In this document: positions 10,760 through 24,530 of the stretch, one piece after another
Layout of the letters: every line of letters begins with the position of its first letter
Numbering within the stretch: the first letter of the stretch is position 1
From: Escherichia phage BME3
Sequence record: PP239276.1
Reading direction: 5' to 3' (one strand)
DNA: 64,000 nucleotides
Notes under the pieces: generated by a model
What the model was told of the DNA's origin: nothing
The model's input: only the letters and a program-made list of their open reading frames with translations
Database searches by the model: none
Program-made: the position numbers and the translations under genes

Positions 10760-10766
10760 ATAATTC

Positions 10767-10851: not shown

Positions 10852-10858
10852 TTTAATT

Positions 10859-10945: not shown

Positions 10946-10950
10946 GTGTT

Positions 10951-11236: not shown

Positions 11237-11245
11237 CGTTCTTAA

Positions 11246-11506: not shown

Positions 11507-11569
11507 CGTTATCATACTTTAAATCTAACATAAAACTATGTTGCTTGTCAAGTAGTTTTTAAAACTTTT

Positions 11570-11651: not shown

Positions 11652-11723
11652 TTTTCACAGTAACTATAACAAAAAACTAAGTAAATGTCAAGATATTTTT
11701 TACTAAATTGCTATTTAAATTGA

Positions 11724-11829
11724 AGCCTAGTTATGGAATCGAACCATATTTCGTATTTAGTTAGACAAAGCGATCTAACATATTTTTCAGGCTTTGATGG
11801 CCTCGGAATTACCAAATACCCTACCAGGC
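11724..11829 (-). tRNA. tRNA-like element (over-long, 8-nt internal loop; possible pseudo-tRNA or structured RNA)
   Basis: Canonical T-arm TATGG/TTCGATT/CCATA and 7-bp acceptor pairing spanning about 106 nt; interior contains hairpin GTTAGA-TCGCTTTG-TCTAAC instead of a canonical anticodon arm. Confidence 0.25.
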
Positions 11830-11831
11830 GT

Positions 11832-11917
11832 TGGTGCAAGTGGAGGGATTCGAACCCTCAATCATTTAAGCGTTGCGTTTTAAGCACAATGTGTATCACC
11901 AATTCCACCACACTTGC
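11832..11917 (-). tRNA. tRNA-Leu (anticodon UAA), type II
   Basis: 86 nt; perfect acceptor GCAAGTG/CACTTGC, anticodon arm TTGTG/CTTAAAA/CGCAA, long variable arm, T-arm GAGGG/TTCGAAT/CCCTC. Confidence 0.6.
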
Positions 11918-11948
11918 ATATAGGAGATGCATAGCACCTCCTTTTAAA

Positions 11949-12024
11949 TGGTGGTTCCCCAGGGTTACAATCCCTGCCCTCGACACTTATGAGGTGTGCG
12001 CTCTCGTCAGTGAGCTATGGAACC
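11949..12024 (-). tRNA. tRNA with CAU anticodon (third CAU species; Met/fMet/Ile2)
   Basis: Acceptor GGTTCCA/GGGAACC, D-arm GCTC..GAGC, anticodon arm CACAC/CTCATAA/GTGTC; T-loop ATTGTAA is non-canonical. Confidence 0.5.
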
Positions 12025-12771: not shown

Positions 12772-14505
12772 TTAGTCAACCTGGATGGTTCCCATAGTAC
12801 GAAGAACCTCTACGTCAACACGGTTGCGGATATCAGTGAATGTTTCATCACGTCCTTCTACTTGTGGTGTAATAACCTTACCATCTTTGAAGATAACTTG
12901 TAACTCATTGTCTTCATCCTGGATATCTTTAAAAGAAAGATTATCTACAAGAGAAAGATTACCATTAGTATCCTTAACAACCTTAATAAAACCTTTTGCA
13001 GAGCGTTTACCAGGATCAGTTTTAGGCTCCTTACTTACCAAAATTTCGTGTTCACCGATGATGCTACCTGTTGCTTTAACAGCAAAGCCAAAAGTATCTC
13101 GTGTATTGAACTGATAAGTATAACTACCAACACCAAATACAATATTGGAAGCAGCAAAGCCTTTCTTCTTCAGTCGGCGTAAGATTTCGTGTTCTCGTTC
13201 AACAGTAATAGAATCACCATAAATCATACCGATGTGCTGATCAAGAACCTTGTAGCCTTTTCGGTTGATAGTACCGCCAAACACTTCCCAAAGGATTTGA
13301 ATAGAACCTACTGCTTCACAATAAGGAATCTCATAAGTTTCATCAATACAATCAGCAACGCTACAATCCTGAAGAACATTGTAATACTTATTAACATCAG
13401 CCAAATGAACTACTTCAGTGGCTGTCGCAATACCATTATTTAAAAGGTCTTCATAGTTATCAAAAGATTCAACATTGTATCCTGCAACAACTTTAACCGG
13501 ATCTCCTGAATCTGGACGAATAACAAGACGACCATTTCGTGACATAATGGACTCTTTCAATTCTACCAGAATGCGAGTCAAGACAGCCCAGTAATCATAA
13601 GAATCTGCTACATATGAACAAAAACCTTCTGGAACAATTTCTTCAATATAGCGGCGAAGAAACTCTTTCTCTGCTACATAACGAAGCCCATCAACATCAT
13701 CTTTAAGATGTGGGAAATGTTTCTTCAGATCTTCAACAATAGCTCCAATGTTAGTCGTTGCTACTGAATGTTCTGTTGCCGGAATAGAACCTGCAACAAA
13801 TTGATCATAATCAATACCATAATAATCATGCACAGTTTCAATAGCCAGAATATTATCTGTTCCTGTGAAAGATGCCAAATGAGCGATACCACTCTTATAA
13901 CCATCTTCGATATTGCTTAAGCCACGTAGACTAAAATCATGACACTGGAAATTAACGTGATCAATGTTATCACACGTTGCCATCGCATACGCCATAGCGA
14001 TACGCTTATACTGAAAAGCTGCTGTGGCATTAGTCATTGTCTTCCAAGTTTCATCTGACAAGAGTGTTTCAACATAGTTAGTTAACCAAAAGAATTTTTC
14101 TAAAGTGTTATGCACAGTAAACACAGGAACACCAATAGGGCACAAAACACCTTCTGGCAGAGATCGAACTTCTAGCGGAAGATAACCTAAATCGTGCAAT
14201 TCTCCCCAACATTCAGCAGAAGGAGCAGAAGCACCTAATGCATTTTTAGACATACGATAAAATTTATTTACTGCTGCACTACGAGACATTTTAAAGAAGC
14301 TGTCCCACATAGTTACAAGAGCATCAGTAACTGCTCGACGAATACCTAAAACAATAACACCACGTGCTTCACGATCTGCATAATGTGCAAAGTTTTTATC
14401 ATTACGAGGAGTTAAATTAGAGAAAATGAGTTTTGTATTTTGGTTGTACATCTGCTTGTGACCAGGTTTATACCAATCAGTAGCAAAAGGTGCAAAAATA
14501 TTCAT
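12772..14505 (-). CDS. nadV: nicotinamide phosphoribosyltransferase-like protein (NAMPT family; NARP1 Namat-like)
   Basis: 577 aa; NAMPT hallmarks TDWYK, PEGVLCPIGVPVFTVHNT..FWLTNYVET, HDFSLRG, IRPDSGDP. Confidence 0.85.
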   Translation of the reverse strand: MNIFAPFATDWYKPGHKQMYNQNTKLIFSNLTPRNDKNFAHYADREARGVIVLGIRRAVTDALVTMWDSFFKMSRSAAVNKFYRMSKNALGASAPSAECWGELHDLGYLPLEVRSLPEGVLCPIGVPVFTVHNTLEKFFWLTNYVETLLSDETWKTMTNATAAFQYKRIAMAYAMATCDNIDHVNFQCHDFSLRGLSNIEDGYKSGIAHLASFTGTDNILAIETVHDYYGIDYDQFVAGSIPATEHSVATTNIGAIVEDLKKHFPHLKDDVDGLRYVAEKEFLRRYIEEIVPEGFCSYVADSYDYWAVLTRILVELKESIMSRNGRLVIRPDSGDPVKVVAGYNVESFDNYEDLLNNGIATATEVVHLADVNKYYNVLQDCSVADCIDETYEIPYCEAVGSIQILWEVFGGTINRKGYKVLDQHIGMIYGDSITVEREHEILRRLKKKGFAASNIVFGVGSYTYQFNTRDTFGFAVKATGSIIGEHEILVSKEPKTDPGKRSAKGFIKVVKDTNGNLSLVDNLSFKDIQDEDNELQVIFKDGKVITPQVEGRDETFTDIRNRVDVEVLRTMGTIQVD

Positions 14506-14576: not shown

Positions 14577-15470
14577 TTAAAAATTCCACACGTATGGAGA
14601 TACAATTTGTTGTTGCAAATCTGACTGATTCTTAACAAGAACACCGGAATCTTCTTGGATGTTATCTTCCCACACATTAAGAGAATGAATGCAGTCAAAG
14701 TGCTCACTTAACTCTTTAAGACCTTTAGAAAAGATACCGTGTGTAACATATAGCTCAATCTTACCTGCGTTACGAGCACGTAGCACTTTAGCCAATTCGA
14801 TAAAAGTTCTACCACCATCACAGATATCATCTACGATCATCAGGTTACGCTTATTGAAATCCTGTACAGAAATGTCTGTACGAACAATAGCACCTGTTGC
14901 AGTATCTCTAACCTTCTCTGCACAGAACACATCTAAAGACATTTTCTTAGATAATTTAAATATTTTCTTAAGAGCACCACCATCAGGACTAACAAGAGCA
15001 AAATTCTCCATACGTAACTTCCACTTTAAAGTTTCGTAAGCAATCTCTTCTTGAGGTATTACATAGAGTCTGTCAAACACTGCTGGAGTAACATCGCTAT
15101 GTGGATCAGCAACGATAACACGTGAGAAATTTAATGAATTAATTATAGAAGCAAATGCTTTAACTCCGAATGCTTCCCCAGGCTCACACACTCTGTCTTG
15201 TCGTGCATACGGTACATACAGCATGAGTAAATCAACACAATATGGTTTATGATATAGCATATTGTCCAATGCATTCTTAGTCATAACCAAAGTCATCAAG
15301 TCTTTAGCAGATCTTACTTCTAAAGAGAGTAAGATTCTGTCTGTAGCATGATTGAAACCTGATAGATTCGTATCTAGTTGAACATGTTGTTCTCCACCAG
15401 AGAATGTAAAGACTTTAACGTCTACATCAGTAACATAACAGTCAACACCATGTAGAATACTAACTTTCAT
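14577..15470 (-). CDS. prs: ribose-phosphate pyrophosphokinase-like protein (PRPP synthetase family; NARP1 Adps-like)
   Basis: 297 aa; Prs motifs PYARQDR, LVSPDGGA, MIVDDICDGGRT; directly upstream of the NAMPT-like gene on the same strand. Confidence 0.85.
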   Translation of the reverse strand: MKVSILHGVDCYVTDVDVKVFTFSGGEQHVQLDTNLSGFNHATDRILLSLEVRSAKDLMTLVMTKNALDNMLYHKPYCVDLLMLYVPYARQDRVCEPGEAFGVKAFASIINSLNFSRVIVADPHSDVTPAVFDRLYVIPQEEIAYETLKWKLRMENFALVSPDGGALKKIFKLSKKMSLDVFCAEKVRDTATGAIVRTDISVQDFNKRNLMIVDDICDGGRTFIELAKVLRARNAGKIELYVTHGIFSKGLKELSEHFDCIHSLNVWEDNIQEDSGVLVKNQSDLQQQIVSPYVWNF

Positions 15471-15880
15471 TATTTATCTCCTTAGTTGAGTTAGGACTTT
15501 ATGTTCTCTACTCTACATACAGATAGATCTAAAGTCAATAGATATTTATTATTTAATTAATAATAAAATTAATAAAGAATCTATTGTTAGTATAGAGCAT
15601 GTATGTTAGTATTATAGACATAACATAGTGCTATATGTAGACTACTCAGTTGTCTGTTAGATCATGTATCACAAGATTAGATAACACCCCCCTCGCTGCG
15701 CTCGGCGTTTTTCGGGGGTTAGGGTAGCATACTTTTTTGAGTTTGTCAACACCTTTTTAGATTATTTTTAAATACAACCTAAACCTCCTAAAAACGATTG
15801 TAACGAGTTTTACTGTGAGGTAAGGTGATTGCATATCTTAGAGGCTATTAGCTCGTTACAGAGCTATACAGGAGGGAATA

Positions 15881-16249
15881 ATGAGGGTCACACGTTACGT
15901 TAGAAGTGAAACAATAGATGGAGGCATAATGTATGCTTTCTACGATGATAAAACTTTTTGTTCTGCGTTCTATGAAGAAGACTTGTCTACGGAATGGCAA
16001 CAAATCATCTTCTTACTTGACATTTTGAAAAGAAGAGATAACTTTGAAGGTATTGAGTGGACAGCGGGAAGCAAAGTTATCGTTGCAGGTTTAAGCAAAC
16101 ATGAATTGCTTGACTTAGACTGTAAACTTTGTAATTATCAATTCTCAAAACGTTTACCATTAGAAAGACAGTTAGGAGTTGAGATTCATGTTGACTTGGG
16201 CGATGGAGTATCCTATACTCTCAACAATCATAGTGCTGACATTAATTAG
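15881..16249 (+). CDS. hypothetical early protein
   Basis: 122-aa ORF, first gene of plus-strand block after the ~410-bp divergent intergenic region; GGAGGG RBS. Confidence 0.5.
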   Translation: MRVTRYVRSETIDGGIMYAFYDDKTFCSAFYEEDLSTEWQQIIFLLDILKRRDNFEGIEWTAGSKVIVAGLSKHELLDLDCKLCNYQFSKRLPLERQLGVEIHVDLGDGVSYTLNNHSADIN

Positions 16250-16315
16250 TGGAATCACAAAGTGCGTCACAAGCATTTGCGATTGTTTAACACATTTTAA
16301 ACAAAGGAAAAATAA

Positions 16316-16513
16316 ATGAATCAAACTATGCAAACAATCTATAGAGTCATCCTTGGTGAGTTCCATGTTGTTAAGTCAACATTGAATTATGAAGAAGCTA
16401 AAGAGAATTTCTTGCTATGGGTTGAAGCCTTCTCTGAAGTTGAAAAGGTAAGTTACAATTGTGTAACTTTAACTGCTGATCACGTACCTGTATTGGAGTT
16501 TATTAAGAAATGA
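16316..16513 (+). CDS. hypothetical protein
   Basis: 65-aa ORF with AAAGGAAA RBS. Confidence 0.45.
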   Translation: MNQTMQTIYRVILGEFHVVKSTLNYEEAKENFLLWVEAFSEVEKVSYNCVTLTADHVPVLEFIKK

Positions 16514-16749
16514 AAAAAGAAATTTTAACTGATGTAACATATTCTTGTATTAGCAAAGGCGGTTTATATCGTGTAGTTGGTTTTCCTAAACCAGCGGGTG
16601 TATCTAAAGTATTTGATCCTGTTGTGATCTACGAAGATGTAAGGACTGGTCAACAGTATTGGCGATTCCAGCAAGATTTCTTACACCGCATGGAGGTTGT
16701 TGATGGCGAAAACACCGAAGAAGCGATCCGTAACAAAGCGCGCATCTAA
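16510..16749 (+). CDS. hypothetical protein
   Basis: 79-aa ORF; start overlaps previous stop. Confidence 0.4.
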   Translation: MKKEILTDVTYSCISKGGLYRVVGFPKPAGVSKVFDPVVIYEDVRTGQQYWRFQQDFLHRMEVVDGENTEEAIRNKARI

Positions 16750-17038
16750 AGATGGGGCGGCAAAAGCCGCTCCTAAGAAACAAAAATTTGACACAGAGGC
16801 TTTTGTCTTTGATACTCCAATAGAAAAGATAGAAGAAGCTCTTGCTAAATTTGAAGCACGTGATGCAGATCCTATGGCAGATCCTTTCACAGAAGATGAA
16901 TTGTACTGGTTTGGCTGGTGGGTTTTGAATCTACCAGAAGCTAAAAAACGAGGAATGAAGTCAGTTCCTATTTGCGCAAAAGAGTCGGCTGTGTTAGGTT
17001 TATACGAGAAGCCTAAAAGAAGGAGCAAAAAGAAATGA
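16697..17038 (+). CDS. lysine-rich basic protein (possible DNA-binding)
   Basis: GGAGG RBS 6 nt before ATG at ~16703 (MAKTPKKRSVTKRASKDGAAKAAPKKQKF...); C-terminus KPKRRSKKK; histone-H1-like composition. Confidence 0.5.
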   Translation: MLMAKTPKKRSVTKRASKDGAAKAAPKKQKFDTEAFVFDTPIEKIEEALAKFEARDADPMADPFTEDELYWFGWWVLNLPEAKKRGMKSVPICAKESAVLGLYEKPKRRSKKK

Positions 17039-17313
17039 GAAAAACTTATCTGAAGTGTTTGTCTGTTGTGCAAAATGAATGGTATTCAGGTTTGCTGACA
17101 GCAGGTAAGAAATATGAAGTGCTCAATAAACCAGGGGCAAGATTTTCATTAATTAAGAACGACGAAGGCACTGAAATGCTTATTTCAGTTGCAGATTCTG
17201 TGTATGGCACTTTTGAGTTGGTCTATGAATATGTACCAATTATTCTTGAATACAGCGGTACAAACAAGCCTTACACAGCTTTAGATGTGATCAACAACAA
17301 AAGGAATAAGTAA
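17035..17313 (+). CDS. hypothetical protein
   Basis: 92-aa ORF, start overlaps previous stop. Confidence 0.5.
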   Translation: MRKTYLKCLSVVQNEWYSGLLTAGKKYEVLNKPGARFSLIKNDEGTEMLISVADSVYGTFELVYEYVPIILEYSGTNKPYTALDVINNKRNK

Positions 17314-17504
17314 TGTTTCTTATTTATTCAGGTAAAGCCAAATACATGCAAGGTGTAAAGCGTGTAGAAGTAGTAGATACTGTAACTATAGGAAAATCCT
17401 TTATTCTTTATTTGTTTTATATCAATGGAGAAAGATTTGCTGTTTCTAAGAAGTTGGTAGATAATGGTAAAACTTGGAAAGAAGAGAAACAGGAAGGGGG
17501 TTGA
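17313..17504 (+). CDS. hypothetical protein
   Basis: 63-aa ORF. Confidence 0.4.
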   Translation: MFLIYSGKAKYMQGVKRVEVVDTVTIGKSFILYLFYINGERFAVSKKLVDNGKTWKEEKQEGG

Positions 17505-17848
17505 TAGTGGCTAAAATTCTTTGGTTAGACGATTTAAGAGATCCTAAAGATTATGGTTATGAGGATGCCATTTGGTTAAAATCTTTTGGGGATTGGTTAT
17601 CTTTTGTTTCAGATGAAGATAATTTCAATAATATCTCAGAGATACACTTCGATAATGATCTTGGAGAAGATCAGGAAGGATATCATGCATTCTTAGACGT
17701 AGAATGTATGTTGTATGCGGGTGAATGGGATGCTCTTAAAACTATCTATGTCCATACATCAAACCCTTCTGCTGCTGGTAAATATATGTTAGCTAAGGAA
17801 AATTTTATTTCATCTTATGGTGTTGAAATTAAGCGTGTTAACTATTAA
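17474..17848 (+). CDS. hypothetical protein
   Basis: 124-aa track ORF; likely GTG start near 17507 (MAKILWLDD...). Confidence 0.45.
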   Translation: MERRETGRGLIVAKILWLDDLRDPKDYGYEDAIWLKSFGDWLSFVSDEDNFNNISEIHFDNDLGEDQEGYHAFLDVECMLYAGEWDALKTIYVHTSNPSAAGKYMLAKENFISSYGVEIKRVNY

Positions 17849-18003
17849 GTAGGTATTATGCATTACTCAGTTTGGTCAGAGCAAGAAGAGGATGAAGGGC
17901 GTTTTATCTATAAAGAGGAAGAAAACTGTAACGATACGAGTAATGATCTTTTACTTCCTGATTACAGTTTTTTCGCTGATAGATTAAAAGAGTACGGAGA
18001 AAA

Positions 18004-18366
18004 TTGATGTGCGCTACTAATCAACATGATATTTGTTACCAACCTCTTACTTGGCTTGGTGAGGATCACTATGCTCAACGTGTTATAGTCTGCGCTGCGA
18101 ATAAGTATATTCTCAATAATGGCGAAGAGTTAATTATTCCTTGTGTTAGGCATGCAAATCCTGTACTATCTGCACAACTTAATGTTTTAAAAGATGCAGG
18201 ATTGATTGATAAACTGTTTTGCTTACCTGATAATCAAGGGTTTATTGATCAGTATTATAACTGGTGGAGTCGCAAAGATGCTTATATCATTGCAGATAAC
18301 GCCAAACAAATTAACTACGAAAGAAATGGTCACAACAGTGAACTATTCAGCGAGGGATTATACTAA
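18004..18366 (+). CDS. hypothetical protein
   Basis: 120-aa ORF directly upstream of the phosphoesterase gene. Confidence 0.5.
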   Translation: MMCATNQHDICYQPLTWLGEDHYAQRVIVCAANKYILNNGEELIIPCVRHANPVLSAQLNVLKDAGLIDKLFCLPDNQGFIDQYYNWWSRKDAYIIADNAKQINYERNGHNSELFSEGLY

Positions 18367-18917
18367 TGTTTATTACAAGTGATTTGCATTTTATGCACAA
18401 ACGTATCCGAGAGTTTGCTCCTGAATATCGCCCGTGGGAAGATATGGAGCATATGACAGAAGCACTGATCGAAGCATGGAATAAATGTGCCACAACACCA
18501 GGAGTAAAGATGTACCATCTTGGGGACTTCTGTTTCGGGACTGAAGAAGATACCCGTAAGATTGCTTCCCGTCTCCAAGGAGATATTACTTACTGTGTTG
18601 GGAACCATGATTATAGTAAACACAGAAAAGTGCTTGCAGAGTATGGAGAAGTGGTTTATTATGACGAAGTGAAATATCAGAAGCTGTTCTTCGTCTTAAG
18701 TCATTACCCTATGGCTGCCTGGAATAAACAAGGGCATGGATCAATCATGCTACACGGACACTCTCACGGATCATTCCCTGACCATTTGTATGGGAAGATG
18801 TTGGATGTTGGTTGGGATGCACACGGGAAAATCTTGCATTTTGACGAAATCATCTCTATTATGGATAAGCGTGATATTGTTGTTGTAGACCATCATAAGA
18901 TAATCAAAGGAGATTAA
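18366..18917 (+). CDS. calcineurin-like metallophosphoesterase (candidate RNA 2',3'-cyclic phosphodiesterase / 3'-phosphatase)
   Basis: 183 aa; metallophosphatase motifs DLHF, GDFCFG, GNHD, HGHSH. Confidence 0.75.
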   Translation: MFITSDLHFMHKRIREFAPEYRPWEDMEHMTEALIEAWNKCATTPGVKMYHLGDFCFGTEEDTRKIASRLQGDITYCVGNHDYSKHRKVLAEYGEVVYYDEVKYQKLFFVLSHYPMAAWNKQGHGSIMLHGHSHGSFPDHLYGKMLDVGWDAHGKILHFDEIISIMDKRDIVVVDHHKIIKGD

Positions 18918-18918
18918 G

Positions 18919-19851
18919 GTGGCTAAGTTCAATTGTGATGACCTGATTGCAAAAGGTTTAGTGCATAAAAAAGAAGTTAAATCTGGAGAGTATGCTGGTC
19001 TTGCTGTACTTAAATACAAAAACAATGTATTCTGGGATAACTTGTGGAACGTTGACAAACGACTTTTAGATTGTCGTGGGTTGGTTGTTGATTCAGAAGA
19101 CAATGTTGTTATTTGGCCTTTTACTAAAATCTTTAATCGTTTTGAAAATGGTACAGATCTTCCAGCAGACGAAATTGTAGATGCTGTCCGTAAAGTAAAC
19201 GGTTTTATGGCATCTGTAGGTGTGTACAAAGGGAAACTTGTTGTATCAACAACAGGGAGCCTAGAATCAGATTTCGCAATTATGGCAAAGAACCGTATTG
19301 TTTCCGAGTGTGACGACATAGAGTATTTCATTAAGTGGACAGAAAGTGCAAAAGCAACTTTTCTTTTTGAAATCTGTGATCCTTCTGATCCACATATTGT
19401 CGAAGAAGAACCAGGCGCATACTTAATTGGAGCAAGAATTCAAAATCTTGATGGGACAAGTTTCATGTTACCTGAAGGTGTTCTTGATGGGATTGCATCT
19501 GTTACAAAATTTAAACGTCCTGAAGTTTATCCGATGATTAAATTTTCAGATGTTGTTGAAATGTCTAAACATTGTAAACACGAAGGGTTTGTAGTTCGTG
19601 AAACAAACTACCCGTTTAACTTACTGTTAAAGATTAAGTCACCATACTATCTTGCTAAAAAATTCCTTATGCGTGGTGGCAATAAGAAGTGGGATATGAT
19701 TTGGGACAACCCAAACAATGCTAAACAAATTGTTGACGAAGAATATTATACTTTGCTAGAATGGCTTCGAAACAACTTTACGAAGGCTCAATGGGCTGCT
19801 CTCGATCCACAAGAGAGACGTAAAGAAATAGAAAACTTCTTTGGAGGCTAA
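18919..19851 (+). CDS. RNA ligase-like nucleotidyltransferase
   Basis: 310 aa; covalent nucleotidyltransferase motif I KVNGF, motif IV EGFVVR, motif V LKIKS; too short for an OB-fold DNA ligase, and a separate DNA ligase is present. Confidence 0.6.
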   Translation: MAKFNCDDLIAKGLVHKKEVKSGEYAGLAVLKYKNNVFWDNLWNVDKRLLDCRGLVVDSEDNVVIWPFTKIFNRFENGTDLPADEIVDAVRKVNGFMASVGVYKGKLVVSTTGSLESDFAIMAKNRIVSECDDIEYFIKWTESAKATFLFEICDPSDPHIVEEEPGAYLIGARIQNLDGTSFMLPEGVLDGIASVTKFKRPEVYPMIKFSDVVEMSKHCKHEGFVVRETNYPFNLLLKIKSPYYLAKKFLMRGGNKKWDMIWDNPNNAKQIVDEEYYTLLEWLRNNFTKAQWAALDPQERRKEIENFFGG

Positions 19852-20256
19852 ATGAAACAACTTATCATTTTACGTGGTGTTTCAGGCGCAGGTAAATCTA
19901 CAGTAGCAGAAATTATCTCTGAAAATCATTGGCCTATTTGTGAGGCAGATCAATACCACTACACTGAAGATGGTGTGTATGAGTGGAAACAAGAGAATAT
20001 CCATAAAGCACACCAATGGTGTCGTGTCAAAGTACAAAAATATATGCAGTATGGTGTTGAAAAGATTATTGTCTCTAACACTTCAACCACAGAGAAAGAA
20101 CTTAAACCTTATTTAACTCTTGCTGAAGAGTTTGGTTATCAAGTTATCTCTTTAGTAGTTGAAAATAGGCACGGTAACGACTCAATTCATGAGGTTCCAC
20201 AACATATTCGTGATCAGCAAGAGAAACGTCTTCGCAGTTCACTTAAACTACAATAA
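19852..20256 (+). CDS. polynucleotide 5'-kinase-like P-loop kinase
   Basis: 134 aa; Walker A GVSGAGKST at N-terminus, overall layout resembling the kinase domain of T4 Pnk; start 1 nt after the ligase-like gene stop. Confidence 0.65.
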   Translation: MKQLIILRGVSGAGKSTVAEIISENHWPICEADQYHYTEDGVYEWKQENIHKAHQWCRVKVQKYMQYGVEKIIVSNTSTTEKELKPYLTLAEEFGYQVISLVVENRHGNDSIHEVPQHIRDQQEKRLRSSLKLQ

Positions 20257-20265
20257 GGAGAGTGT

Positions 20266-20586
20266 ATGGAAATTTATTCTGGTGAAGGTAAGTATTTTAC
20301 AGTAGTCGATAATGGTGAAATTATTATTTATCGCTACGGAAGTGAGTGGAGGAACGAGACAGGAGACGGCTATATCTTATCTTTGCTCCGTTTGATTAAT
20401 GATCTTACGGAAGAACTTGAAGAAACAAAACGTTCATATGATGACCAAGTAGATTCATTAGAAAACATTATTTCAGATCTAAATGAAGAAGTTTGTTATT
20501 TGAGTGGACAAGTTTCAGAGTTAACACTGGAATGTGAAGATTTAGGTGATGTTATTGCAGATTTAAATGAACGTCTTAAGGATTAA
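20266..20586 (+). CDS. hypothetical coiled-coil protein
   Basis: 106-aa ORF; heptad-like acidic C-terminal half. Confidence 0.5.
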   Translation: MEIYSGEGKYFTVVDNGEIIIYRYGSEWRNETGDGYILSLLRLINDLTEELEETKRSYDDQVDSLENIISDLNEEVCYLSGQVSELTLECEDLGDVIADLNERLKD

Positions 20587-20589
20587 TAT

Positions 20590-20814
20590 ATGAGTACAGC
20601 TATCTATGTTAAAGGTGTAAGCGAAGATCAACAAATGTTATTCTCATTTGGTGAGAATACTGAAATGGAAGATATGTTTAATGATATCCTTGATGCCCTT
20701 TCTTCTGAAGGGTTCACAATGATTACATACTTTATGGCAACATCTTCTGAATATGTTGATACAGATCTTGAAGACTTGATGGAAGAAATTCAAACTCTTG
20801 TGTATAATTGGTAA
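20590..20814 (+). CDS. hypothetical acidic protein
   Basis: 74-aa ORF. Confidence 0.45.
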   Translation: MSTAIYVKGVSEDQQMLFSFGENTEMEDMFNDILDALSSEGFTMITYFMATSSEYVDTDLEDLMEEIQTLVYNW

Positions 20815-21011
20815 GGTTAACTATGACATTTATTGAAGAACTAACGAGAATTGCAAACGCGCCTAACAGTAGTGAAGATCCTTACTTTATGGTGGATGAT
20901 TACACTGGTGGTAATATTGATGATGCCTATGAACTAGGCAGACTACACGGTGAAATTGAAATGGCTAAATGGGTTCTTTCGCAACTGGAGGTTAAAGATG
21001 AAACAAACTAA
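20808..21011 (+). CDS. hypothetical protein
   Basis: 67-aa track ORF; probable start at internal MTFIEE with RBS. Confidence 0.4.
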   Translation: MVRLTMTFIEELTRIANAPNSSEDPYFMVDDYTGGNIDDAYELGRLHGEIEMAKWVLSQLEVKDETN

Positions 21012-22113
21012 TCCTACATTGTATGGTAAAACTTCTACAGGTAAAATTAAACAGTGGTCAGTCTATACCGAAGGTAGTGTTGTAACTGTTGCTCATGGTC
21101 AATTAGGTGGAAAGATTACTAGCAAATCTTATACAGCAGAACCTAAAAATATTGGTCGCTCAAATGAAACAACAGCAGAAGAACAAGCTGAAATAGAAGC
21201 TCTTGCCAAATGGACAAAGCAACTTAAGAATGGGTATTATAAAACAAAAGAGGAAGCTGAAAACCATGTTCCTTCTACACCCATGAAATGTCAGGATTAT
21301 AAAGATTATGCTGATCGTGTTTTGTTCCCAGGTTATGCACAATATAAATTGAATGGTCTACGTTCAATGATTAACATGCAAGGTGAATGTTTATCTAAAG
21401 CTGGGGAGGTATATAAACTTCCACCTCACTGGGAAGAAATTCCAACCTTCATTAAAGAAGTAGTTAGTCATCCTCTTGACGGTGAAGTTTTTGCTGGTTT
21501 GGGTGTCCTTAGCCTTCAACAAATTAATAGTGCGTGGAAAAAGCATAATGCTAACACTCCGCTTCTTAAATACTATGTATATGATGTTCCTGTGCCATCT
21601 GTACCATTTGAGAAGAGGGTTGAAGTTTTGGCTGCTCTAAAAGACGTTGTTGAAGATAAAGGTTTAGATGAACTTATTTGTGTAGTACATACAGAGTACA
21701 TTGAAAACCAAGAGCAGTTTGATGAATTCTATGCAAAAGCTCTGCGTGAGAAAGCGGAAGGTGTTGTGTATCGTAATGCACAAGGTGTTTACGAGTTTGA
21801 TAAACGTTCTTATGATGTTATTAAACGTAAACCACGGCAGACGCTGGAAGTTAAGGTGGTAAGTGCAAAACGTGATAAAAATGGTGACGGGGTATTGACA
21901 GGTGAGATGGAAAATGGTAAAGTAGTCGAATTCCTGATGCGTAAGGATTCAGATGAAACCATTAACTATCGTAAAGAAGAAAATGCTTTGACACTTATTG
22001 GTCAATTTGTTGAAATAGAGTACGAAGAATTTTCAGACGAAGGTATTCCTACCAAGCCTGTTGGGGTACGTGTACGTAAGATGATTCCAGGTACTTGGGA
22101 ACCAGCAGAGTAA
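20950..22113 (+). CDS. ATP-dependent DNA ligase
   Basis: Motif I KLNGLR, motif IV EGVVYR, motif V DVIKRK, C-terminal OB-like region; GGAGG RBS before internal Met at ~20998 (MKQTNPTLYGK). Confidence 0.75.
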   Translation: MKLKWLNGFFRNWRLKMKQTNPTLYGKTSTGKIKQWSVYTEGSVVTVAHGQLGGKITSKSYTAEPKNIGRSNETTAEEQAEIEALAKWTKQLKNGYYKTKEEAENHVPSTPMKCQDYKDYADRVLFPGYAQYKLNGLRSMINMQGECLSKAGEVYKLPPHWEEIPTFIKEVVSHPLDGEVFAGLGVLSLQQINSAWKKHNANTPLLKYYVYDVPVPSVPFEKRVEVLAALKDVVEDKGLDELICVVHTEYIENQEQFDEFYAKALREKAEGVVYRNAQGVYEFDKRSYDVIKRKPRQTLEVKVVSAKRDKNGDGVLTGEMENGKVVEFLMRKDSDETINYRKEENALTLIGQFVEIEYEEFSDEGIPTKPVGVRVRKMIPGTWEPAE

Positions 22114-22301
22114 GAGGTAATATGGTATTAGTAACAGTTCTTATGATGTTAATTGCTATTGCAATTATAATGTTAGCCTCGTTTCCAGTGGATAAATGGT
22201 ACTGCAATTTTTGTAGATTTGTTGTTTTCCTCTGTGCTGGGGCGTATATGGGCGAATCGGTAGTTCGCATTAGTGTTTTGTTAGAACAATATTTTAAATA
22301 A
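22095..22301 (+). CDS. small membrane protein
   Basis: Two hydrophobic helices (LVTVLMMLIAIAIIMLA; FVVFLCAGAYMG); probable start near 22122. Confidence 0.45.
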   Translation: MGTSRVRGNMVLVTVLMMLIAIAIIMLASFPVDKWYCNFCRFVVFLCAGAYMGESVVRISVLLEQYFK

Positions 22302-22310
22302 GGAGAAACA

Positions 22311-23033
22311 ATGATCGAGAATTTTTTCAAACAAGTAAAAGTGGACAATAGCTTCTTTATCAAAGCTGCCGATCAAATTGTTGCTTGGAATGCTAAGGCA
22401 CGCGGTGGAGTAACCCCAGAATTTACTCAAGAGATGTTTGAAGCTCAACTTTCTTTTGTACGAGAAGAACTTAAAGAGTTCCAAGCAGCAGCACAGGAAA
22501 ATGATCACGTTGAATTACTTGATGCAGCAGCAGATATTTTTGTAGTAGCATCCTACCTGGCGTTTATGTTCTTTGGTAAAGAAGGTGTTGATAAAGCTCT
22601 GGAAATGCCGACAGGAGATGTTCTGGCAGAAAACATTTACGATGTTATCATCGAATTTGATAAAATGGTAGAAAATGACTTGCAATTTGCACTAATGTCT
22701 CTTACACTTACACGTATGGCACGAGATACTTTGGTGCGTTCTGTTTATAACGAGAAGAAAGTTATGCGTGAAGTGTTGAATAGCAATGAGTCCAAGTATC
22801 CTACCAAAAAGCAACTCCTAGCTATTTGGGAAACTAAGGATATTATTGAAGCTCTTGAAAAAGAATGTGATGCTATCGAGATGCGAAGCAAAGATCGTGC
22901 AGAAGGTTCTTACACTGGAGTACATGCTGTATATAACGAAGTTCAAAAGGTGTACGTATTCTTTGATGACAAAGGTAAAATTATGAAACCATCTACCTTT
23001 GTTAAACCTAATATCGCAGCAATCATTGCTTAA
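22311..23033 (+). CDS. MazG-like all-alpha nucleoside triphosphate pyrophosphohydrolase (possible dCTPase/dUTPase)
   Basis: 240 aa; EELKEFQAAAQEND..ELLDAAADIFVVASYLA resembles MazG/dimeric dUTPase EExxE..D motifs. Confidence 0.5.
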   Translation: MIENFFKQVKVDNSFFIKAADQIVAWNAKARGGVTPEFTQEMFEAQLSFVREELKEFQAAAQENDHVELLDAAADIFVVASYLAFMFFGKEGVDKALEMPTGDVLAENIYDVIIEFDKMVENDLQFALMSLTLTRMARDTLVRSVYNEKKVMREVLNSNESKYPTKKQLLAIWETKDIIEALEKECDAIEMRSKDRAEGSYTGVHAVYNEVQKVYVFFDDKGKIMKPSTFVKPNIAAIIA

Positions 23034-23035
23034 GA

Positions 23036-23062
23036 AATAAAGCCCCTTCGGGGGCTTATTGG
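23036..23062 (+). terminator. intrinsic terminator
   Basis: AAGCCCCTTCGGGGGCTT hairpin followed by ATTGG/T-rich tract. Confidence 0.55.
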
Positions 23063-23069
23063 AGGTATT

Positions 23070-23348
23070 ATGTTAACAGCAGAAGATATCTTTAAACACG
23101 GTTTGCGTCAGGTAATCAAATCCTTGAAGAATGCAGGTATTGAAGATATCACACAGGAAATTGTTGGTTTAGAAAAAGAAGGTAAGAGAACAGAGTTTAA
23201 GTTTTACACAGAAGAACAGTGGTTGAGTAATCCGCAAAATAAAGCTAATGAAGCTGTTAGTCTGTTTGGTAAATCTTATAAAGGATTTAAATATCCTGAT
23301 CATATTGTCGAATATGATGGTGTAAAATATTTTGTAGTTGTTATTTGA
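23070..23348 (+). CDS. hypothetical protein
   Basis: 92-aa ORF with GGAGG RBS. Confidence 0.45.
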   Translation: MLTAEDIFKHGLRQVIKSLKNAGIEDITQEIVGLEKEGKRTEFKFYTEEQWLSNPQNKANEAVSLFGKSYKGFKYPDHIVEYDGVKYFVVVI

Positions 23349-24243
23349 GGAGAAAACTATGTTTGCTAAAAATTTCAAATCTTGCGTAACCCTGATTTCT
23401 GGTGATGGTCTGTCTATTTCCGCACTGAACACAGTAACAGATAAACCGCTGGATTTTGTTGTGGCACAGGGTCAACAAGCACATACCATTGGTCTTGTTC
23501 GTTTTGAAGATGATGGTTCCTATGTAAAAGTGTTCTCTGGTTTAGAGGTTATTAAAGTAGGGCAGTCTGTTAAGAAAGTTAACAAGAAGAAAGTTAAACG
23601 CATTCTTAATGAAAAACTCCAGGAGATGGAACAAGAGTTTATTGCTGCAAACCCTACTAAAGAATTCTTCCTGGACAAAGAAAGTAAAAAGGCAATTGAG
23701 GCTGATATCGTGTTTTCTCTGCTCCCAGAAACAGAGGCAGATGATTTCTATAACTATGTTGTTGTAGACACTGAAAACAGTATTACCTACGTTCTTAATG
23801 GTACTAAGAAAATTAGTGAAGATATTGCTGTGTTTCTTCGTGAGGTGTTGGGTACTTTCCCAGTCCTGCCGTTTAGTGTACACGAAGAAGCCATTATTAA
23901 AGGTTTTGATACCATCTTAGAAGAACATGAGGCTGAACGACTGACACTTGGTAATTATATTAAACTTGAAGATTCTGAAGGTGTGGTTGTATGGAGTAAA
24001 GAATCCCTTTATGAATCTCGTGCAGTAGAACTTATGGAAGATGGTAAGCACGTTGTTGCCATTGGCCTGGAATATGACGGTTTCGTTAACTTTATTGTTG
24101 ATAAAGAATTTAAGTTGAGTGGTATTAAATTCCCTAAATACTTTAACGATGAAGAAGGATCTTTTGAAGCATCTGTTCTTCTGTGCTTTAATGAAATCCG
24201 TGGTATTATGCAAGACCTTATCAAGTCAACTATTCAAAAATAA
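23338..24243 (+). CDS. hypothetical protein
   Basis: 301-aa track ORF; GAGGAG RBS before internal Met near 23359; acidic, no motif recognised. Confidence 0.5.
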   Translation: MLFEEKTMFAKNFKSCVTLISGDGLSISALNTVTDKPLDFVVAQGQQAHTIGLVRFEDDGSYVKVFSGLEVIKVGQSVKKVNKKKVKRILNEKLQEMEQEFIAANPTKEFFLDKESKKAIEADIVFSLLPETEADDFYNYVVVDTENSITYVLNGTKKISEDIAVFLREVLGTFPVLPFSVHEEAIIKGFDTILEEHEAERLTLGNYIKLEDSEGVVVWSKESLYESRAVELMEDGKHVVAIGLEYDGFVNFIVDKEFKLSGIKFPKYFNDEEGSFEASVLLCFNEIRGIMQDLIKSTIQK

Positions 24244-24246
24244 TAC

Positions 24247-24276
24247 TTGACTTACTAATTTAATATGTGTTAATAT
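24247..24276 (+). promoter_or_regulatory. sigma70-like promoter (TTGACT-N18-TAATAT)
   Basis: Consensus-like -35 TTGACT and -10 TAATAT upstream of the secreted-protein gene; followed by an imperfect hairpin and AAGGAG RBS. Confidence 0.4.
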
Positions 24277-24530
24277 GCCTACCTACTCAGTTAGGTGGGC
24301 TTTTAAGGAGACACACCATGAAAAAACTTCTTGTCGGTTTACTTTTAGTAATCAGTTCTTATTCTTATGCTGGTCAAATAACTTTAATTAATTCTGGAGA
24401 ACAAGTTTCTGGAAGTACAAAATACTGTTTTTACTCTAACGGTATGTACGACAAGGTTATAGAGGTTTCTGCAAGTCGTCAGTGTCCCTACACACGAACA
24501 TTCTCAACAGAGAGTTCAGATGATGAATAG
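24267..24530 (+). CDS. small secreted protein
   Basis: Internal Met near 24318 with AAGGAG RBS begins MKKLLVGLLLVISSYSYA (signal peptide, SYA-G cleavage site); ~70-aa mature product with 2 Cys. Confidence 0.5.
   Translation: MLICLPTQLGGLLRRHTMKKLLVGLLLVISSYSYAGQITLINSGEQVSGSTKYCFYSNGMYDKVIEVSASRQCPYTRTFSTESSDDE

What the first reader, a model, noticed from the sequence alone, without database searches (positions are those of the whole stretch)
18366..20256. Three-gene RNA healing-and-sealing operon: metallophosphoesterase, RNA-ligase-like enzyme, polynucleotide kinase
A calcineurin-type phosphoesterase, a small covalent nucleotidyltransferase (KVNGF / EGFVVR / LKIKS) and a T4-Pnk-like P-loop kinase are encoded back to back with 1-2 nt spacing. 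Together they supply the activities needed to repair tRNAs cleaved by anticodon nucleases: 2',3'-cyclic phosphate removal, 5' phosphorylation, ligation. This mirrors bacterial Pnkp (kinase / metallophosphoesterase / ligase domains) but split into separate genes, and it sits in the same genome as a large tRNA cluster. A dedicated DNA ligase is encoded separately at 20950..22113, supporting an RNA role for the 18919 gene.
Basis: partly seen in the sequence, partly recalled or inferred. Interest (0 to 1): 0.65.

Follow-up and report, generated by a model that had tools for sequence, protein, structure and literature searches.

The report
Phage three-enzyme RNA repair gene cluster
A phi92-like E. 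coli phage carries a tight cluster of a phosphoesterase, a T4-type RNA ligase and a small polynucleotide-kinase-like enzyme that most likely mends RNA cut by host defence nucleases; this kind of system is known, some databases already annotate these genes this way, and the activity has never been tested.

Summary
Three back-to-back genes at 18366-20256 encode an intact binuclear metallophosphoesterase, an Rnl1-type RNA ligase with all catalytic motifs, and a 134-aa P-loop kinase whose best sequence and fold matches are polynucleotide kinases. The window is a phi92-like coliphage.

The strongest new evidence is comparative. Of 80 viral loci holding a ligase homologue (38-96% identity), 77 keep the phosphoesterase and 61 keep the kinase, in at least six gene orders. 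The window's unrelated neighbours survive in only 1-3 loci. The same kinase-phosphoesterase pair also sits beside an unrelated RNA ligase family elsewhere. A cyclic-phosphate-processing Receiver-domain (cREC) gene at 17507-17848 belongs to the cluster.

- The phosphoesterase belongs to the uncharacterised Aquifex aq_1665 family, not the lambda-phosphatase/Pnkp type. A lambda-type enzyme lies 25 kb away at 44943-45689.
- The kinase family never has the essential Arg of the Pnk Asp-x-x-Arg motif.
- The ligase lacks T4 Rnl1's long C-terminal domain.
- tRNA as the substrate is inferred only.

Relatives are already annotated as RNA ligase, polynucleotide kinase and phosphoesterase. In phage Bas54 all three genes are dispensable on laboratory E. 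coli.

Verdict: a new variant of a known kind, of moderate interest.

The parts
17507..17848 (+). cREC (cyclic-phosphate-processing Receiver-like) protein, 113 aa, GTG start; probable accessory 3'-end healing component (phi92 gp100)
   Evidence: PF20274 cREC_REC 1.4e-13, 51.7 bits against a cut-off of 27. Invariant W.DD.RDP..YG, HFDNDLGE and VH.SNPSA..K in 11 sequences. Present in 10 of 80 ligase loci, directly upstream of the kinase in rV5/PVP-SE1-like contigs. cREC-RNA ligase linkage was described by Iyer et al. 2021, PMC7824862.
17858..18007 (+). 49-aa ORF (phi92 gp099), unknown; overlaps the next gene by 1 nt (TGATG)
   Evidence: No family hit. Retained in 1 of 80 ligase loci, so it is probably not part of the functional module.
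18007..18366 (+). 119-aa homologue of T4 Arn.3 (phi92 gp098), function unknown; overlaps the phosphoesterase start by 1 nt (TAATG)
   Evidence: phrog_839 6e-47. tblastn finds it in 1535 phage records, including T-even arn.3. Retained in only 3 of 80 ligase loci. It is a physical neighbour, not a conserved partner.
18366..18917 (+). Binuclear metallophosphoesterase of the aq_1665 family, 183 aa; predicted 2',3'-cyclic phosphodiesterase / 3'-phosphatase (3'-end healing)
   Evidence: phrog_547 5e-55. A profile of 27 homologues matches PDB 1xm7 at 2e-21. Invariant D6, H8, D54, N80, H81, H113, H132 and H134. Lies within 5 kb of the ligase in 77 of 80 viral loci.
18919..19851 (+). Rnl1-type ATP-dependent RNA ligase, 310 aa, GTG start; sealing enzyme
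   Evidence: PF09511 54.3 bits. phrog_562 8e-69. Profile against PDB matches T4 Rnl1 2c5u at 8e-11. Invariant K92, E151, E222, G223, K238 and K240. AlphaFold2 model pLDDT 88. Foldseek top hits are T4 Rnl1 and fungal Trl1 ligase domains.
19852..20256 (+). Stand-alone Pnk-like P-loop kinase, 134 aa; predicted polynucleotide 5'-kinase (5'-end healing)
   Evidence: AAA_33 1.8e-10. Profile against PDB gives Pnkp1 4xrp at 2e-6, CthPnk 4gp7 at 8e-5 and T4 Pnk at 9e-5. Model pLDDT 88. The top 20 fold hits are all T4 Pnk or CthPnk, TM 0.73-0.79. K15, D33 and T77 are conserved, but the motif is D33-Q-Y-H36, not DxxR. Lies near the ligase in 61 of 80 loci.

Best explanation
This is a phage-encoded RNA end-healing and sealing module, functionally equivalent to the T4 Pnkp + Rnl1 pathway but built from separate, partly non-orthologous proteins.

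Proposed mechanism:
1. A host ribotoxin, such as an anticodon nuclease or another metal-independent RNase, leaves a 2',3'-cyclic phosphate end and a 5'-OH end.
2. The aq_1665-type metallophosphoesterase opens and removes the cyclic or 3' phosphate to give a 3'-OH. In this phage lineage the cREC protein may help.
3. The 134-aa Pnk-like kinase transfers a phosphate from an NTP to the 5'-OH.
4. The Rnl1-type ligase is adenylylated on K92, transfers AMP to the 5'-phosphate, and seals the break.

The genes are translationally coupled in the early/middle plus-strand gene block. The module complements the phage's own 16-tRNA cluster as a second way to keep translation running.

Shown here: the enzyme families, intact catalytic residues, predicted folds, and conserved linkage across diverse phages. 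Inferred: every enzymatic activity, the division of labour at the 3' end, tRNA as the substrate, and the counter-defence role.
For: Ligase:
- Pfam RNA_lig_T4_1 scores above its cut-off.
- The profile matches T4 Rnl1 at 8e-11.
- All nucleotidyltransferase motifs are invariant in 20 homologues.
- Fold hits rank T4 Rnl1, then Trl1, Rnl3, Rnl2 and Rnl5, with DNA ligases last.

Kinase:
- The best PDB profile hits and the top 20 fold hits are all polynucleotide kinases.
- P-loop K15, general-base D33 and T77 are conserved in 136-146 of 146 family members.

Phosphoesterase:
- All metal-binding motifs are invariant.

Linkage:
- Of 80 ligase-seeded viral loci, the phosphoesterase is present in 77 and the kinase in 61, in at least six gene orders. 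The window's other neighbours gp098, gp099 and gp094 are present in only 3, 1 and 2.
- The kinase-phosphoesterase pair also flanks an unrelated PF09414 RNA ligase in 14 kinase-seeded loci (16 counting loci that also hold the Rnl1-type ligase). HAD_SAK_2 RNA-repair phosphatases appear in two loci.
- Phosphoesterase-only loci have no other recurrent neighbour.
- phrog_8238 is a 737-aa family whose N-terminus matches the kinase and whose C-terminus matches the ligase, i.e. a fusion elsewhere.

Other support:
- Established knowledge: T4 Pnkp + Rnl1 repair PrrC-cut tRNA-Lys (PMC3400036). A binuclear metallophosphoesterase can heal 2',3'-cyclic phosphate ends (PMC2190708).
- cREC-RNA ligase operons have been reported (PMC7824862).
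- The homologous trio in phage Bas54 tolerates transposon insertions on E. coli K-12, as expected for an accessory counter-defence module.
Against: - No activity has been measured for any member of these three subfamilies.
- The kinase family never has Arg or Lys at the D+3 position (F, H, L or W in 146 sequences). That Arg is essential in T4 Pnk and CthPnk.
- The phosphoesterase's only solved relative, aq_1665, has no known function.
- About half of phosphoesterase-seeded loci (37-43 of 80) have no ligase or kinase within 6 kb.
- The ligase matches T4 Rnl1 only over residues 48-241. It has a 65-residue helical tail in place of the roughly 120-residue T4 C-terminal domain. T4 K119 aligns with an invariant Thr (that K119 is essential is from memory).
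- In Bas54 the trio was not depleted on two uropathogenic isolates, so no phenotype is known yet.
Confidence: 0.7

Rival explanations
1. The phosphoesterase, cREC and perhaps the kinase act on small molecules rather than RNA ends. Candidates are cyclic-nucleotide or ADP-ribose-derived defence signals and NAD-related metabolites. On this view their closeness to the ligase reflects a shared counter-defence neighbourhood, not one pathway.
For: The phosphoesterase family stands alone in 37-43 of 80 seeded loci. The kinase stands alone in 21-22 of 80. Iyer et al. link cREC to NAD/ADP-ribose-processing systems. NAMPT-like and PRPP-synthetase-like genes lie 0.9-3.1 kb upstream on the other strand. 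The kinase lacks the polynucleotide-anchoring Arg. Weak kinase hits include nicotinamide riboside kinase at E 0.007.
Against: The only recurrent partners of both families are RNA ligases, of two unrelated families. Linkage persists through gene-order permutation. The kinase's best sequence and fold matches are polynucleotide kinases, not nucleoside kinases. The NAD genes are on the opposite strand, across a divergent intergenic region.
Confidence: 0.12
2. The module heals and seals DNA ends or RNA-DNA hybrid ends, for example 3'-phosphate/5'-OH breaks in phage DNA, rather than RNA.
For: T4 Pnk and CthPnk crystal complexes hold DNA oligonucleotides. The module sits in a block of DNA-metabolism genes: DNA ligase, RdgC-like protein, exonucleases and a DNA polymerase subunit.
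Against: The ligase's sequence and fold neighbours are RNA ligases; DNA ligases rank far lower, at E 4e-5 or worse. A dedicated ATP-dependent DNA ligase is encoded 0.75 kb downstream. The alternative partner ligase elsewhere is also an RNA ligase family, PF09414.
Confidence: 0.08
3. The ligase homologue serves mainly as a tail-fibre attachment factor, like the second activity of T4 gp63. On this view the neighbouring enzymes are unrelated.
For: It falls in the PHROG named 'RNA ligase and tail fiber protein attachment catalyst'. T4 gp63 has both activities (PMC3400036 reference list).
Against: All adenylyltransferase residues are invariant. The gene lies among early/metabolic genes, not structural ones. 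Its partners are end-healing enzymes. The Bas54 homologue tolerates insertions on K-12, so it is not needed to build infective virions there, whereas the T4 rnlA N-terminal domain did not tolerate insertions.
Confidence: 0.04
4. The module matures or splices the phage's own RNAs, for example transcripts of the tRNA cluster, rather than repairing host-inflicted damage.
For: The genome carries 16 tRNA genes. Rnl1-like Trl1 ligases do splice tRNAs in fungi (one search hits; PMC10946426 abstract).
Against: ARAGORN reports no intron-containing tRNA in the cluster. The trio is dispensable in Bas54. No splicing endonuclease was seen in the annotation of relatives.
Confidence: 0.03

Closest known systems
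Bacteriophage T4 Pnkp (pseT) + Rnl1 (gp63/rnlA) tRNA repair pathway
   Same: The logic is the same: heal the 3' end, phosphorylate the 5' end, seal with an Rnl1-type ligase. The ligase is a true Rnl1 homologue (profile 8e-11, top fold hit). The kinase has the T4 Pnk kinase-domain fold at TM 0.74-0.78. Both are phage-encoded, and both phages also carry tRNA genes.
   Different: - Here there are three separate small proteins in one cluster. In T4 the two genes are about 1.4 kb apart with four genes between them (coordinates, file 3).
- The 3' phosphatase is a binuclear metallophosphoesterase, not the DxDxT/HAD domain fused to the T4 kinase.
- The kinase has D-x-x-H/F, not D-x-x-R.
- The ligase lacks the roughly 120-aa T4 C-terminal domain.
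- A cREC gene is added.
Bacterial Pnkp/Hen1 (Clostridium thermocellum) and Pnkp1-Rnl-Hen1 (Capnocytophaga) RNA repair systems
   Same: Both combine a Pnk-family kinase, a metallophosphoesterase and a ligase-type adenylyltransferase. Pnkp1 and CthPnk are the best sequence-profile hits of the kinase.
   Different: - Those systems are multidomain polypeptides working with a Hen1 2'-O-methyltransferase. No Hen1 is annotated in relatives of this phage.
- Their phosphatase is lambda-phosphatase-type, whereas this one is aq_1665-type with no detectable match to 1g5b or 4j6o.
- The ligase here is Rnl1-type.
Aquifex aeolicus aq_1665 (PDB 1xm7), a structural-genomics metallophosphoesterase
   Same: It is the only solved relative of the 18366 product (profile E 2e-21, residues 3-118) and has the same metal-binding motifs.
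   Different: aq_1665 is a cellular protein deposited as 'hypothetical protein' with no assigned substrate. The phage family has a conserved RNA-ligase and kinase context.
cREC-linked RNA repair neighbourhoods described by comparative genomics of jumbo phages (Iyer et al. 2021, PMC7824862)
   Same: That work predicts ATP-grasp RNA ligases working with polynucleotide kinases, phosphoesterases (occasionally calcineurin-like) and cREC domains in phage operons. This is exactly the composition found here.
   Different: This phage is about 146-149 kb, not jumbo. The specific aq_1665-type phosphoesterase, the Arg-less kinase and their near-obligate linkage to this Rnl1 subfamily are not spelled out in the text I could read. 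The 2016 source paper could not be opened.
Homologous trio in rV5-like phage Bas54 (bas54_0209-0211) and other Stephanstirmvirinae/Vequintavirinae records
   Same: These are orthologous genes, already annotated as RNA ligase, polynucleotide kinase and putative phosphoesterase. The ligase is about 46-47% identical to rV5-type ligases.
   Different: In Bas54 the kinase and phosphoesterase are divergently oriented to the ligase, and a small ORF follows the ligase. In the rV5-like locus L017, which has the same arrangement, the gene after the ligase is cREC. Here all genes are co-oriented and cREC comes first.

Membership tests
Rnl1-type ATP-dependent RNA ligase (T4 Rnl1, Pfam PF09511) | Motif I lysine nucleophile (KxxG) | tested here: met
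   K92-V-N-G95 is invariant in 20 of 20 homologues and aligns with T4 K99-E-D-G102.
Rnl1-type ATP-dependent RNA ligase (T4 Rnl1, Pfam PF09511) | Nucleotidyltransferase motifs III, IV and V | tested here: met
   E151 (FEI), E222-G223 (EGF) and K238/K240 (KIKS) are invariant. They align with T4 E159, E227-G228 and K240/K242.
Rnl1-type ATP-dependent RNA ligase (T4 Rnl1, Pfam PF09511) | Score above the curated family threshold, with Rnl1 as the nearest fold | tested here: met
   54.3 bits against a gathering score of 28.3. Foldseek ranks 1, 2 and 4 are T4 Rnl1, E about 1e-13, TM 0.61-0.64.
Rnl1-type ATP-dependent RNA ligase (T4 Rnl1, Pfam PF09511) | Rnl1-specific upstream residues (T4 R54, K75, F77) and K119 | tested here: inconclusive
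   R53, K70 and F72 align and are conserved. T4 K119 aligns with invariant T112 in an STTG motif. That these T4 residues are essential is recalled from memory and was not checked in a paper here.
Rnl1-type ATP-dependent RNA ligase (T4 Rnl1, Pfam PF09511) | C-terminal all-helical domain of T4 Rnl1 (about residues 255-374), reported to confer tRNA specificity | tested here: not met
   The profile match ends at residue 241. The model has only six short helices over residues 242-307, at lower confidence (pLDDT 68-88). The role of the T4 domain is from memory.
Rnl1-type ATP-dependent RNA ligase (T4 Rnl1, Pfam PF09511) | Seals 3'-OH/5'-phosphate RNA ends through a ligase-AMP intermediate | not testable with these tools
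   Needs biochemistry.
RNA-repair polynucleotide 5'-kinase (T4 Pnk / CthPnk / Pnkp1 kinase domain) | P-loop GxxGxGK[ST] with catalytic Lys and Ser/Thr | tested here: met
   G9-V-S-G-A-G-K15-S-T17. K15 is present in 146 of 146 sequences.
RNA-repair polynucleotide 5'-kinase (T4 Pnk / CthPnk / Pnkp1 kinase domain) | General-base Asp after strand beta-2 (T4 D35, Cth D38) | tested here: met
   D33 is present in 146 of 146 sequences and aligns with D35/D38. Its role is taken from PMC3902929.
RNA-repair polynucleotide 5'-kinase (T4 Pnk / CthPnk / Pnkp1 kinase domain) | Arg of the Asp-x-x-Arg motif (T4 R38, Cth R41), essential and anchoring the first phosphodiester | tested here: not met
   The window has D33-Q-Y-H36. 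Across 146 family sequences this position is F 106, H 19, L 9, W 7, M 3, A 1 and never R or K. An invariant family-specific R8 before the P-loop might compensate, but that is untested.
RNA-repair polynucleotide 5'-kinase (T4 Pnk / CthPnk / Pnkp1 kinase domain) | Thr contacting the first phosphodiester (T4 T86, Cth T80), and a lid Arg | tested here: met
   T77 is present in 136 of 146 sequences. R106, in ENRHG, is present in 115 of 146 and aligns with the lid region.
RNA-repair polynucleotide 5'-kinase (T4 Pnk / CthPnk / Pnkp1 kinase domain) | Pnk kinase-domain fold | tested here: met
   Model pLDDT is 88. The top 20 Foldseek PDB hits are all T4 Pnk or CthPnk, TM 0.73-0.79.
RNA-repair polynucleotide 5'-kinase (T4 Pnk / CthPnk / Pnkp1 kinase domain) | Phosphorylates 5'-OH polynucleotides | not testable with these tools
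   Needs an enzyme assay.
Calcineurin-like binuclear metallophosphoesterase superfamily | Metal-binding motifs DxH, GD, GNH[DE], H and GHxH | tested here: met
   D6, H8, G53-D54, G79-N80-H81, H113 and G131-H132-x-H134 are invariant in 27 sequences. The single sequence scores below the Pfam cut-off (PF12850, 21.1 against 27), but the family profile matches 1xm7 at 2e-21.
Lambda-phosphatase / CthPnkp-type phosphatase (the metallophosphoesterase subfamily with proven RNA 2',3'-cyclic phosphodiesterase activity) | Detectable homology to lambda phosphatase (1g5b) or the CthPnkp phosphatase domain (4j6o) | tested here: not met
   The profile search lists neither at E up to 1. The window's other phosphoesterase at 44943-45689 matches 1g5b at 2e-29 and 4j6o at 0.002.
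Bacterial Pnkp/Hen1 RNA repair system | Single kinase-phosphatase-ligase polypeptide partnered with a Hen1 methyltransferase | tested here: not met
   There are three separate genes. The NCBIfam bacter_Pnkp model scores 13 bits against a cut-off of 750. No Hen1 is annotated in relatives across the window, but no Hen1 model was run.
cREC (PF20274) cyclic-phosphate-processing Receiver domain | Score above the family threshold, with Receiver-like acidic residues conserved | tested here: met
   51.7 bits against a cut-off of 27. DD, D-N-D, S and K positions are invariant in 11 sequences. The enzymatic activity is itself only a published prediction.

The most novel reading that the evidence does not exclude
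The aq_1665-type metallophosphoesterase and the Arg-less mini-kinase may form a distinct, phage-wide end-healing pair that plugs into interchangeable RNA ligases (Rnl1-like here, PF09414/Rnl5-like elsewhere). On this reading the kinase recognises its 5'-OH acceptor in a new way, through the invariant R8, H54/C57 and H113 residues in place of the canonical DxxR arginine. It would also give the first function to the aq_1665 structural-genomics family. The module might then repair a broader or different set of RNA lesions than T4's tRNA-Lys repair.
Probability: 0.35. Interest if true: 0.55.

Novelty: new variant of a known kind. Interest (0 to 1): 0.42.

Why it matters
If the predicted activities hold, RNA repair is not a T4 peculiarity. 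It would be a common accessory weapon of several large phage groups: the ligase subfamily is in 689 isolate genomes infecting Escherichia, Pseudomonas, Vibrio, Acinetobacter, Campylobacter and Streptomyces.

It would also give a function to an uncharacterised metallophosphoesterase family, and define a polynucleotide-kinase subclass that lacks a residue thought to be essential.

In practice, it points to phage genes that could decide whether therapeutic phages such as phi92-like, rV5-like and Pakpunavirus phages escape RNA-cleaving defences like PrrC, RloC and HEPN nucleases. The enzymes are small and stand-alone, so they could be useful as end-repair reagents.

Tried and rejected
- Single-sequence search of the ligase against PDB found nothing relevant. 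Only a family profile reached T4 Rnl1.
- NCBIfam gave no usable hit for any of the six proteins. PADLOC gave no meaningful hit.
- The source paper on RNA repair systems (Burroughs & Aravind 2016) could not be opened by PMC id or DOI.
- Literature searches for phi92 or rV5 with 'RNA ligase' found nothing. A search for T4 Rnl1 residue data found nothing, so those residue roles rest on memory.
- The sigma-70 promoter and terminator scans were at background level (32 promoter-like sites found against 30.6 expected). They give no operon boundaries apart from a bidirectional hairpin near 23040-23065.
- I considered gp098 as a fourth component. I rejected it because it is a widespread T4 Arn.3 homologue kept in only 3 of 80 ligase loci. 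The label 'anti-restriction nuclease' looks like name spill-over.
- I looked for a recurrent alternative partner in the 37 phosphoesterase-only loci and found none.
- The species-representative genome scan gave only 5 hits, all in metagenome-assembled contigs. There is no evidence of a cellular counterpart of this ligase subfamily, with the caveat that the scan is pattern-based.
- I considered a zinc site (H54, C57, H107, H113) and a compensating R8 in the kinase. Neither could be tested because model coordinates are not exposed.
- One mistyped reference failed.


Full report
**What the window is.** Bases 17400-20300 are 98.2% identical to Escherichia phage phi92 (Justusliebigvirus, Stephanstirmvirinae), and 100 phage records cover at least 80% of that stretch. 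The three ORFs of the finding correspond to phi92 gp097 ('phosphoesterase'), gp096 (unnamed) and gp095 ('ATPase'). Other records name them 'putative RNA ligase / RNA repair', 'polynucleotide kinase' and 'putative phosphoesterase'.

**Check of the observation.** The ORFs are at 18366-18917 (183 aa), 18919-19851 (310 aa, GTG start) and 19852-20256 (134 aa), all on the plus strand.
- TAA at 18915-18917 is followed one base later by GTG at 18919, with AAGGAG upstream.
- TAA at 19849-19851 is followed directly by ATG at 19852, with GGAGG upstream.
- The chain of tight junctions starts further upstream. GTG at 17507 lies 2 nt after the previous stop. The 17858-18007 and 18007-18366 ORFs overlap by one base (TGATG), and 18007-18366 overlaps the phosphoesterase start by one base (TAATG).
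- The tRNA cluster (16 genes, 9147-12024, minus strand) and the separate ATP-dependent DNA ligase (PF01068 3e-11, phrog_114 6e-75) are confirmed. Relatives start the DNA ligase at 20998.

**The ligase.**
- It passes the Pfam RNA_lig_T4_1 threshold (54.3 against 28.3 bits) and falls in the PHROG of T4 gp63 (8e-69).
- A single-sequence PDB search found nothing. A profile of 20 homologues (50-85% identical) matches T4 Rnl1 (2c5u, 9do4) at 8e-11 over residues 48-241.
- K92 (motif I), E151 (III), E222-G223 (IV) and K238/K240 (V) are invariant and align with T4 K99, E159, E227-G228 and K240/K242. R53, K70 and F72 align with T4 R54, K75 and F77. T4 K119 aligns with an invariant Thr. The importance of those T4 residues is from memory.
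- The AlphaFold2 model (pLDDT 88.4) is closest to T4 Rnl1 (E about 1e-13). Next come fungal Trl1 ligase domains, archaeal Rnl3, Rnl2 and Naegleria Rnl. DNA ligases appear only from E 4e-5.
- The C-terminal 65 residues form short helices with lower confidence and have no sequence match to the long T4 C-terminal domain.
- It is therefore an Rnl1-type RNA ligase with a truncated or different specificity module.

**The kinase.**
- Pfam gives only the generic AAA_33, and PHROG calls it 'ATPase', with a weaker Pnk hit at 1e-9.
- A profile of 24 homologues hits Capnocytophaga Pnkp1 (2e-6), CthPnk (8e-5), T4 Pnk (9e-5) and a fungal Trl1 kinase (1e-4). These rank ahead of sugar and nucleoside kinases.
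- The top 20 fold matches of the model (pLDDT 87.9) are all T4 Pnk or CthPnk, with TM 0.73-0.79.
- The P-loop, the general-base Asp (D33), the phosphodiester-contacting Thr (T77) and a lid Arg (R106) are conserved.
[quoted passage not shown] In 146 non-identical family members that position is F, H, L, W, M or A, and never Arg or Lys.
- The family instead has its own invariant residues: R8 just before the P-loop, H113, and near-invariant H54 and C57.
- I therefore call it Pnk-like in fold and context, but not a canonical member.

**The phosphoesterase.**
- All five calcineurin-type metal-binding motifs are invariant in 27 homologues (36-93% identical).
- Its only solved relative is Aquifex aq_1665 (1xm7), deposited as a hypothetical protein (1.3e-6 for the single sequence, 2e-21 for the profile).
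- It shows no detectable relation to lambda phosphatase or the CthPnkp phosphatase domain, which are the metallophosphoesterases with demonstrated 2',3'-cyclic phosphodiesterase activity on RNA-type substrates (PMC2190708).
- The window does hold a true lambda-phosphatase homologue at 44943-45689 (1g5b 2e-29), 25 kb away.
- So 'mirrors bacterial Pnkp' is a functional analogy only.

**Comparative genomics: the main new evidence.**
- Ligase-seeded loci. In 80 viral contigs encoding a ligase homologue (38-96% identical; contigs of 4-300 kb), the phosphoesterase family lies within 5 kb in 77 and the kinase family in 61. The window's other neighbours gp098, gp099 and gp094 are retained in only 3, 1 and 2.
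- Gene order. The orders seen are MPE-RNL-KIN (23 loci), KIN-RNL-MPE (20), MPE-RNL-cREC-KIN (6), RNL-MPE-KIN (5), cREC-MPE-RNL-KIN (3), KIN-MPE-RNL (2) and one divergent arrangement, plus incomplete sets. Here MPE is the phosphoesterase, RNL the ligase and KIN the kinase. Linkage kept through rearrangement, while ordinary synteny decays, argues for a functional unit.
- Phosphoesterase-seeded loci. The ligase is present in 32 of 80 and the kinase in 29. The 37 loci with the phosphoesterase alone share no other recurrent neighbour.
- Kinase-seeded loci (36-49% identical). 33 of 80 have the Rnl1-type ligase. A further 17 have an unrelated RNA ligase (PF09414 with the PHA02142 OB domain), mostly together with the phosphoesterase. 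Two loci carry a HAD 'Swiss-army-knife' RNA-repair phosphatase.
- The healing pair thus travels with interchangeable RNA ligases.
- PHROG 8238 is a 737-aa family whose N-terminus matches the kinase and whose C-terminus matches the ligase, so the two are fused in other phages.
- The ligase subfamily occurs in 689 phage isolate records: Escherichia 198, Pseudomonas 175, Vibrio 83, Streptomyces 78 and others. Only five contigs among species-representative genomes hold it, all metagenome-assembled.

**The cREC gene.** The 17507-17848 product matches PF20274, the 'cyclic-phosphate processing Receiver domain' (1.4e-13), and keeps Receiver-like acidic, Ser and Lys positions. It occurs in 10 of 80 ligase loci, wedged between ligase and kinase in rV5/PVP-SE1-like contigs. 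Iyer et al. 2021 predicted that cREC resolves cyclic phosphate ends and noted operonic links to RNA ligases. They also noted that calcineurin-like phosphatases occasionally replace HAD phosphatases in phage RNA repair. So it belongs to the module here. The two ORFs between it and the phosphoesterase probably do not: one is a T4 Arn.3 homologue found in 1535 phage records.

**Experimental context.** In the HIDEN-SEQ preprint (10.1101/2025.11.20.689424), rV5-like phage Bas54 carries the same trio, annotated as RNA ligase, polynucleotide kinase and putative phosphoesterase (bas54_0209-0211).
- All three carry abundant transposon insertions on E. coli K-12, with mean counts of 140-192.
- None is depleted on the clinical isolates compared (log2 fold change +0.3 to +0.4, q at least 0.75).
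- One relative carries an in-frame phosphoesterase-kinase chimera that has lost the ligase (P0263).
- The module is therefore dispensable in the laboratory, which fits an accessory counter-defence role but does not prove one.

**Conclusion.** The best explanation (about 0.7) is a split, partly non-orthologous version of the T4 Pnkp + Rnl1 healing-and-sealing pathway (pathway as reviewed in PMC3400036).
- Shown: the enzyme families, intact active sites, predicted folds and conserved linkage.
- Inferred: all activities, the division of labour between the phosphoesterase and cREC, and the substrate.
- tRNA is plausible, given the T4 precedent and the phage's investment in tRNAs. It is weakened by the missing T4-like C-terminal domain.
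- Rivals, all less likely: small-molecule or NAD-linked roles for the phosphoesterase, cREC and kinase; DNA-end repair; tail-fibre attachment; and processing of the phage's own RNA.
- The finding is correct in substance and is already partly captured in database annotation and comparative-genomics reviews.
- What is new is the kinase family without the DxxR arginine, a first conserved context for the aq_1665 phosphoesterase family, and ligase swapping around a constant healing pair.

Noticed in passing
window 44943-45689 (+): A second metallophosphoesterase, and a clear lambda-phosphatase homologue (PF00149 at 51 bits; 1g5b at 2e-29; a weak hit to the CthPnkp phosphatase 4j6o). It belongs to the subfamily with proven RNA 2',3'-cyclic phosphodiesterase activity, yet it is not linked to the ligase.
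   Followed up: partly
window 12772-14505 (-) and 14577-15470 (-): Two large minus-strand ORFs that relatives annotate as nicotinamide phosphoribosyltransferase and ribose-phosphate pyrophosphokinase (NAD+ salvage). They face away from the repair cluster across the 15471-15880 intergenic region. Relatives also carry a Sir2-like gene further along.
   Followed up: partly
window 18007-18366 (+): Homologue of T4 arn.3, found in 1535 phage records (T-even, Vi1-like and T5-like phages). The label 'anti-restriction nuclease' used in some records appears to be name spill-over from the neighbouring T4 arn gene. Its function is unknown.
   Followed up: partly
protein P0263 (from a 143-kb contig related to the window): A 202-aa chimera of the phosphoesterase N-terminus (residues 1-128) and the kinase C-terminus (138-202). 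It looks like an in-frame deletion that removed the ligase, which suggests the module is lost in some relatives.
   Followed up: no
window 19852-20256 (+) and 146 family members from loci L003-L249: The kinase family has its own invariant residues: R8 before the P-loop, H113 in an H-x-V-P motif, and near-invariant H54 and C57. These might form a metal site or replace the missing DxxR arginine.
   Followed up: partly
loci L170-L249, e.g. L203 7938-9107: In 14-17 kinase-seeded viral loci, the same kinase (usually with the same phosphoesterase) lies next to a PF09414 RNA ligase with a PHA02142 OB domain instead of the Rnl1-type ligase. Two loci have a HAD_SAK_2 'Swiss-army-knife' RNA-repair phosphatase.
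   Followed up: partly
window 9147-12024 (-): The 16-tRNA cluster includes three CAT-anticodon tRNAs. It also includes Lys(UUU), Tyr(GUA), Asn(GUU) and Gln(UUG), which from memory are isoacceptors targeted by known anticodon nucleases and colicins. No intron-containing tRNA was reported.
   Followed up: no
window 23040-23065 (both strands): A G+C-rich hairpin followed by T-runs on both strands, just after the 22311-23033 MazG-like gene. It is the only convincing terminator-like site in 15300-24500, so the repair genes sit in a long multi-gene transcription block.
   Followed up: no
window 44037-44609 (+): A 190-aa ORF that a relative annotates as 'histidyl tRNA synthetase'. It has no Pfam hit here and is far too short for a synthetase, so the annotation is doubtful.
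   Followed up: partly
window about 15500-16000 and about 52000: GC skew changes sign at both places (negative before 16 kb, positive from 16 to 52 kb, negative after). This coincides with the switches in coding strand.
   Followed up: no
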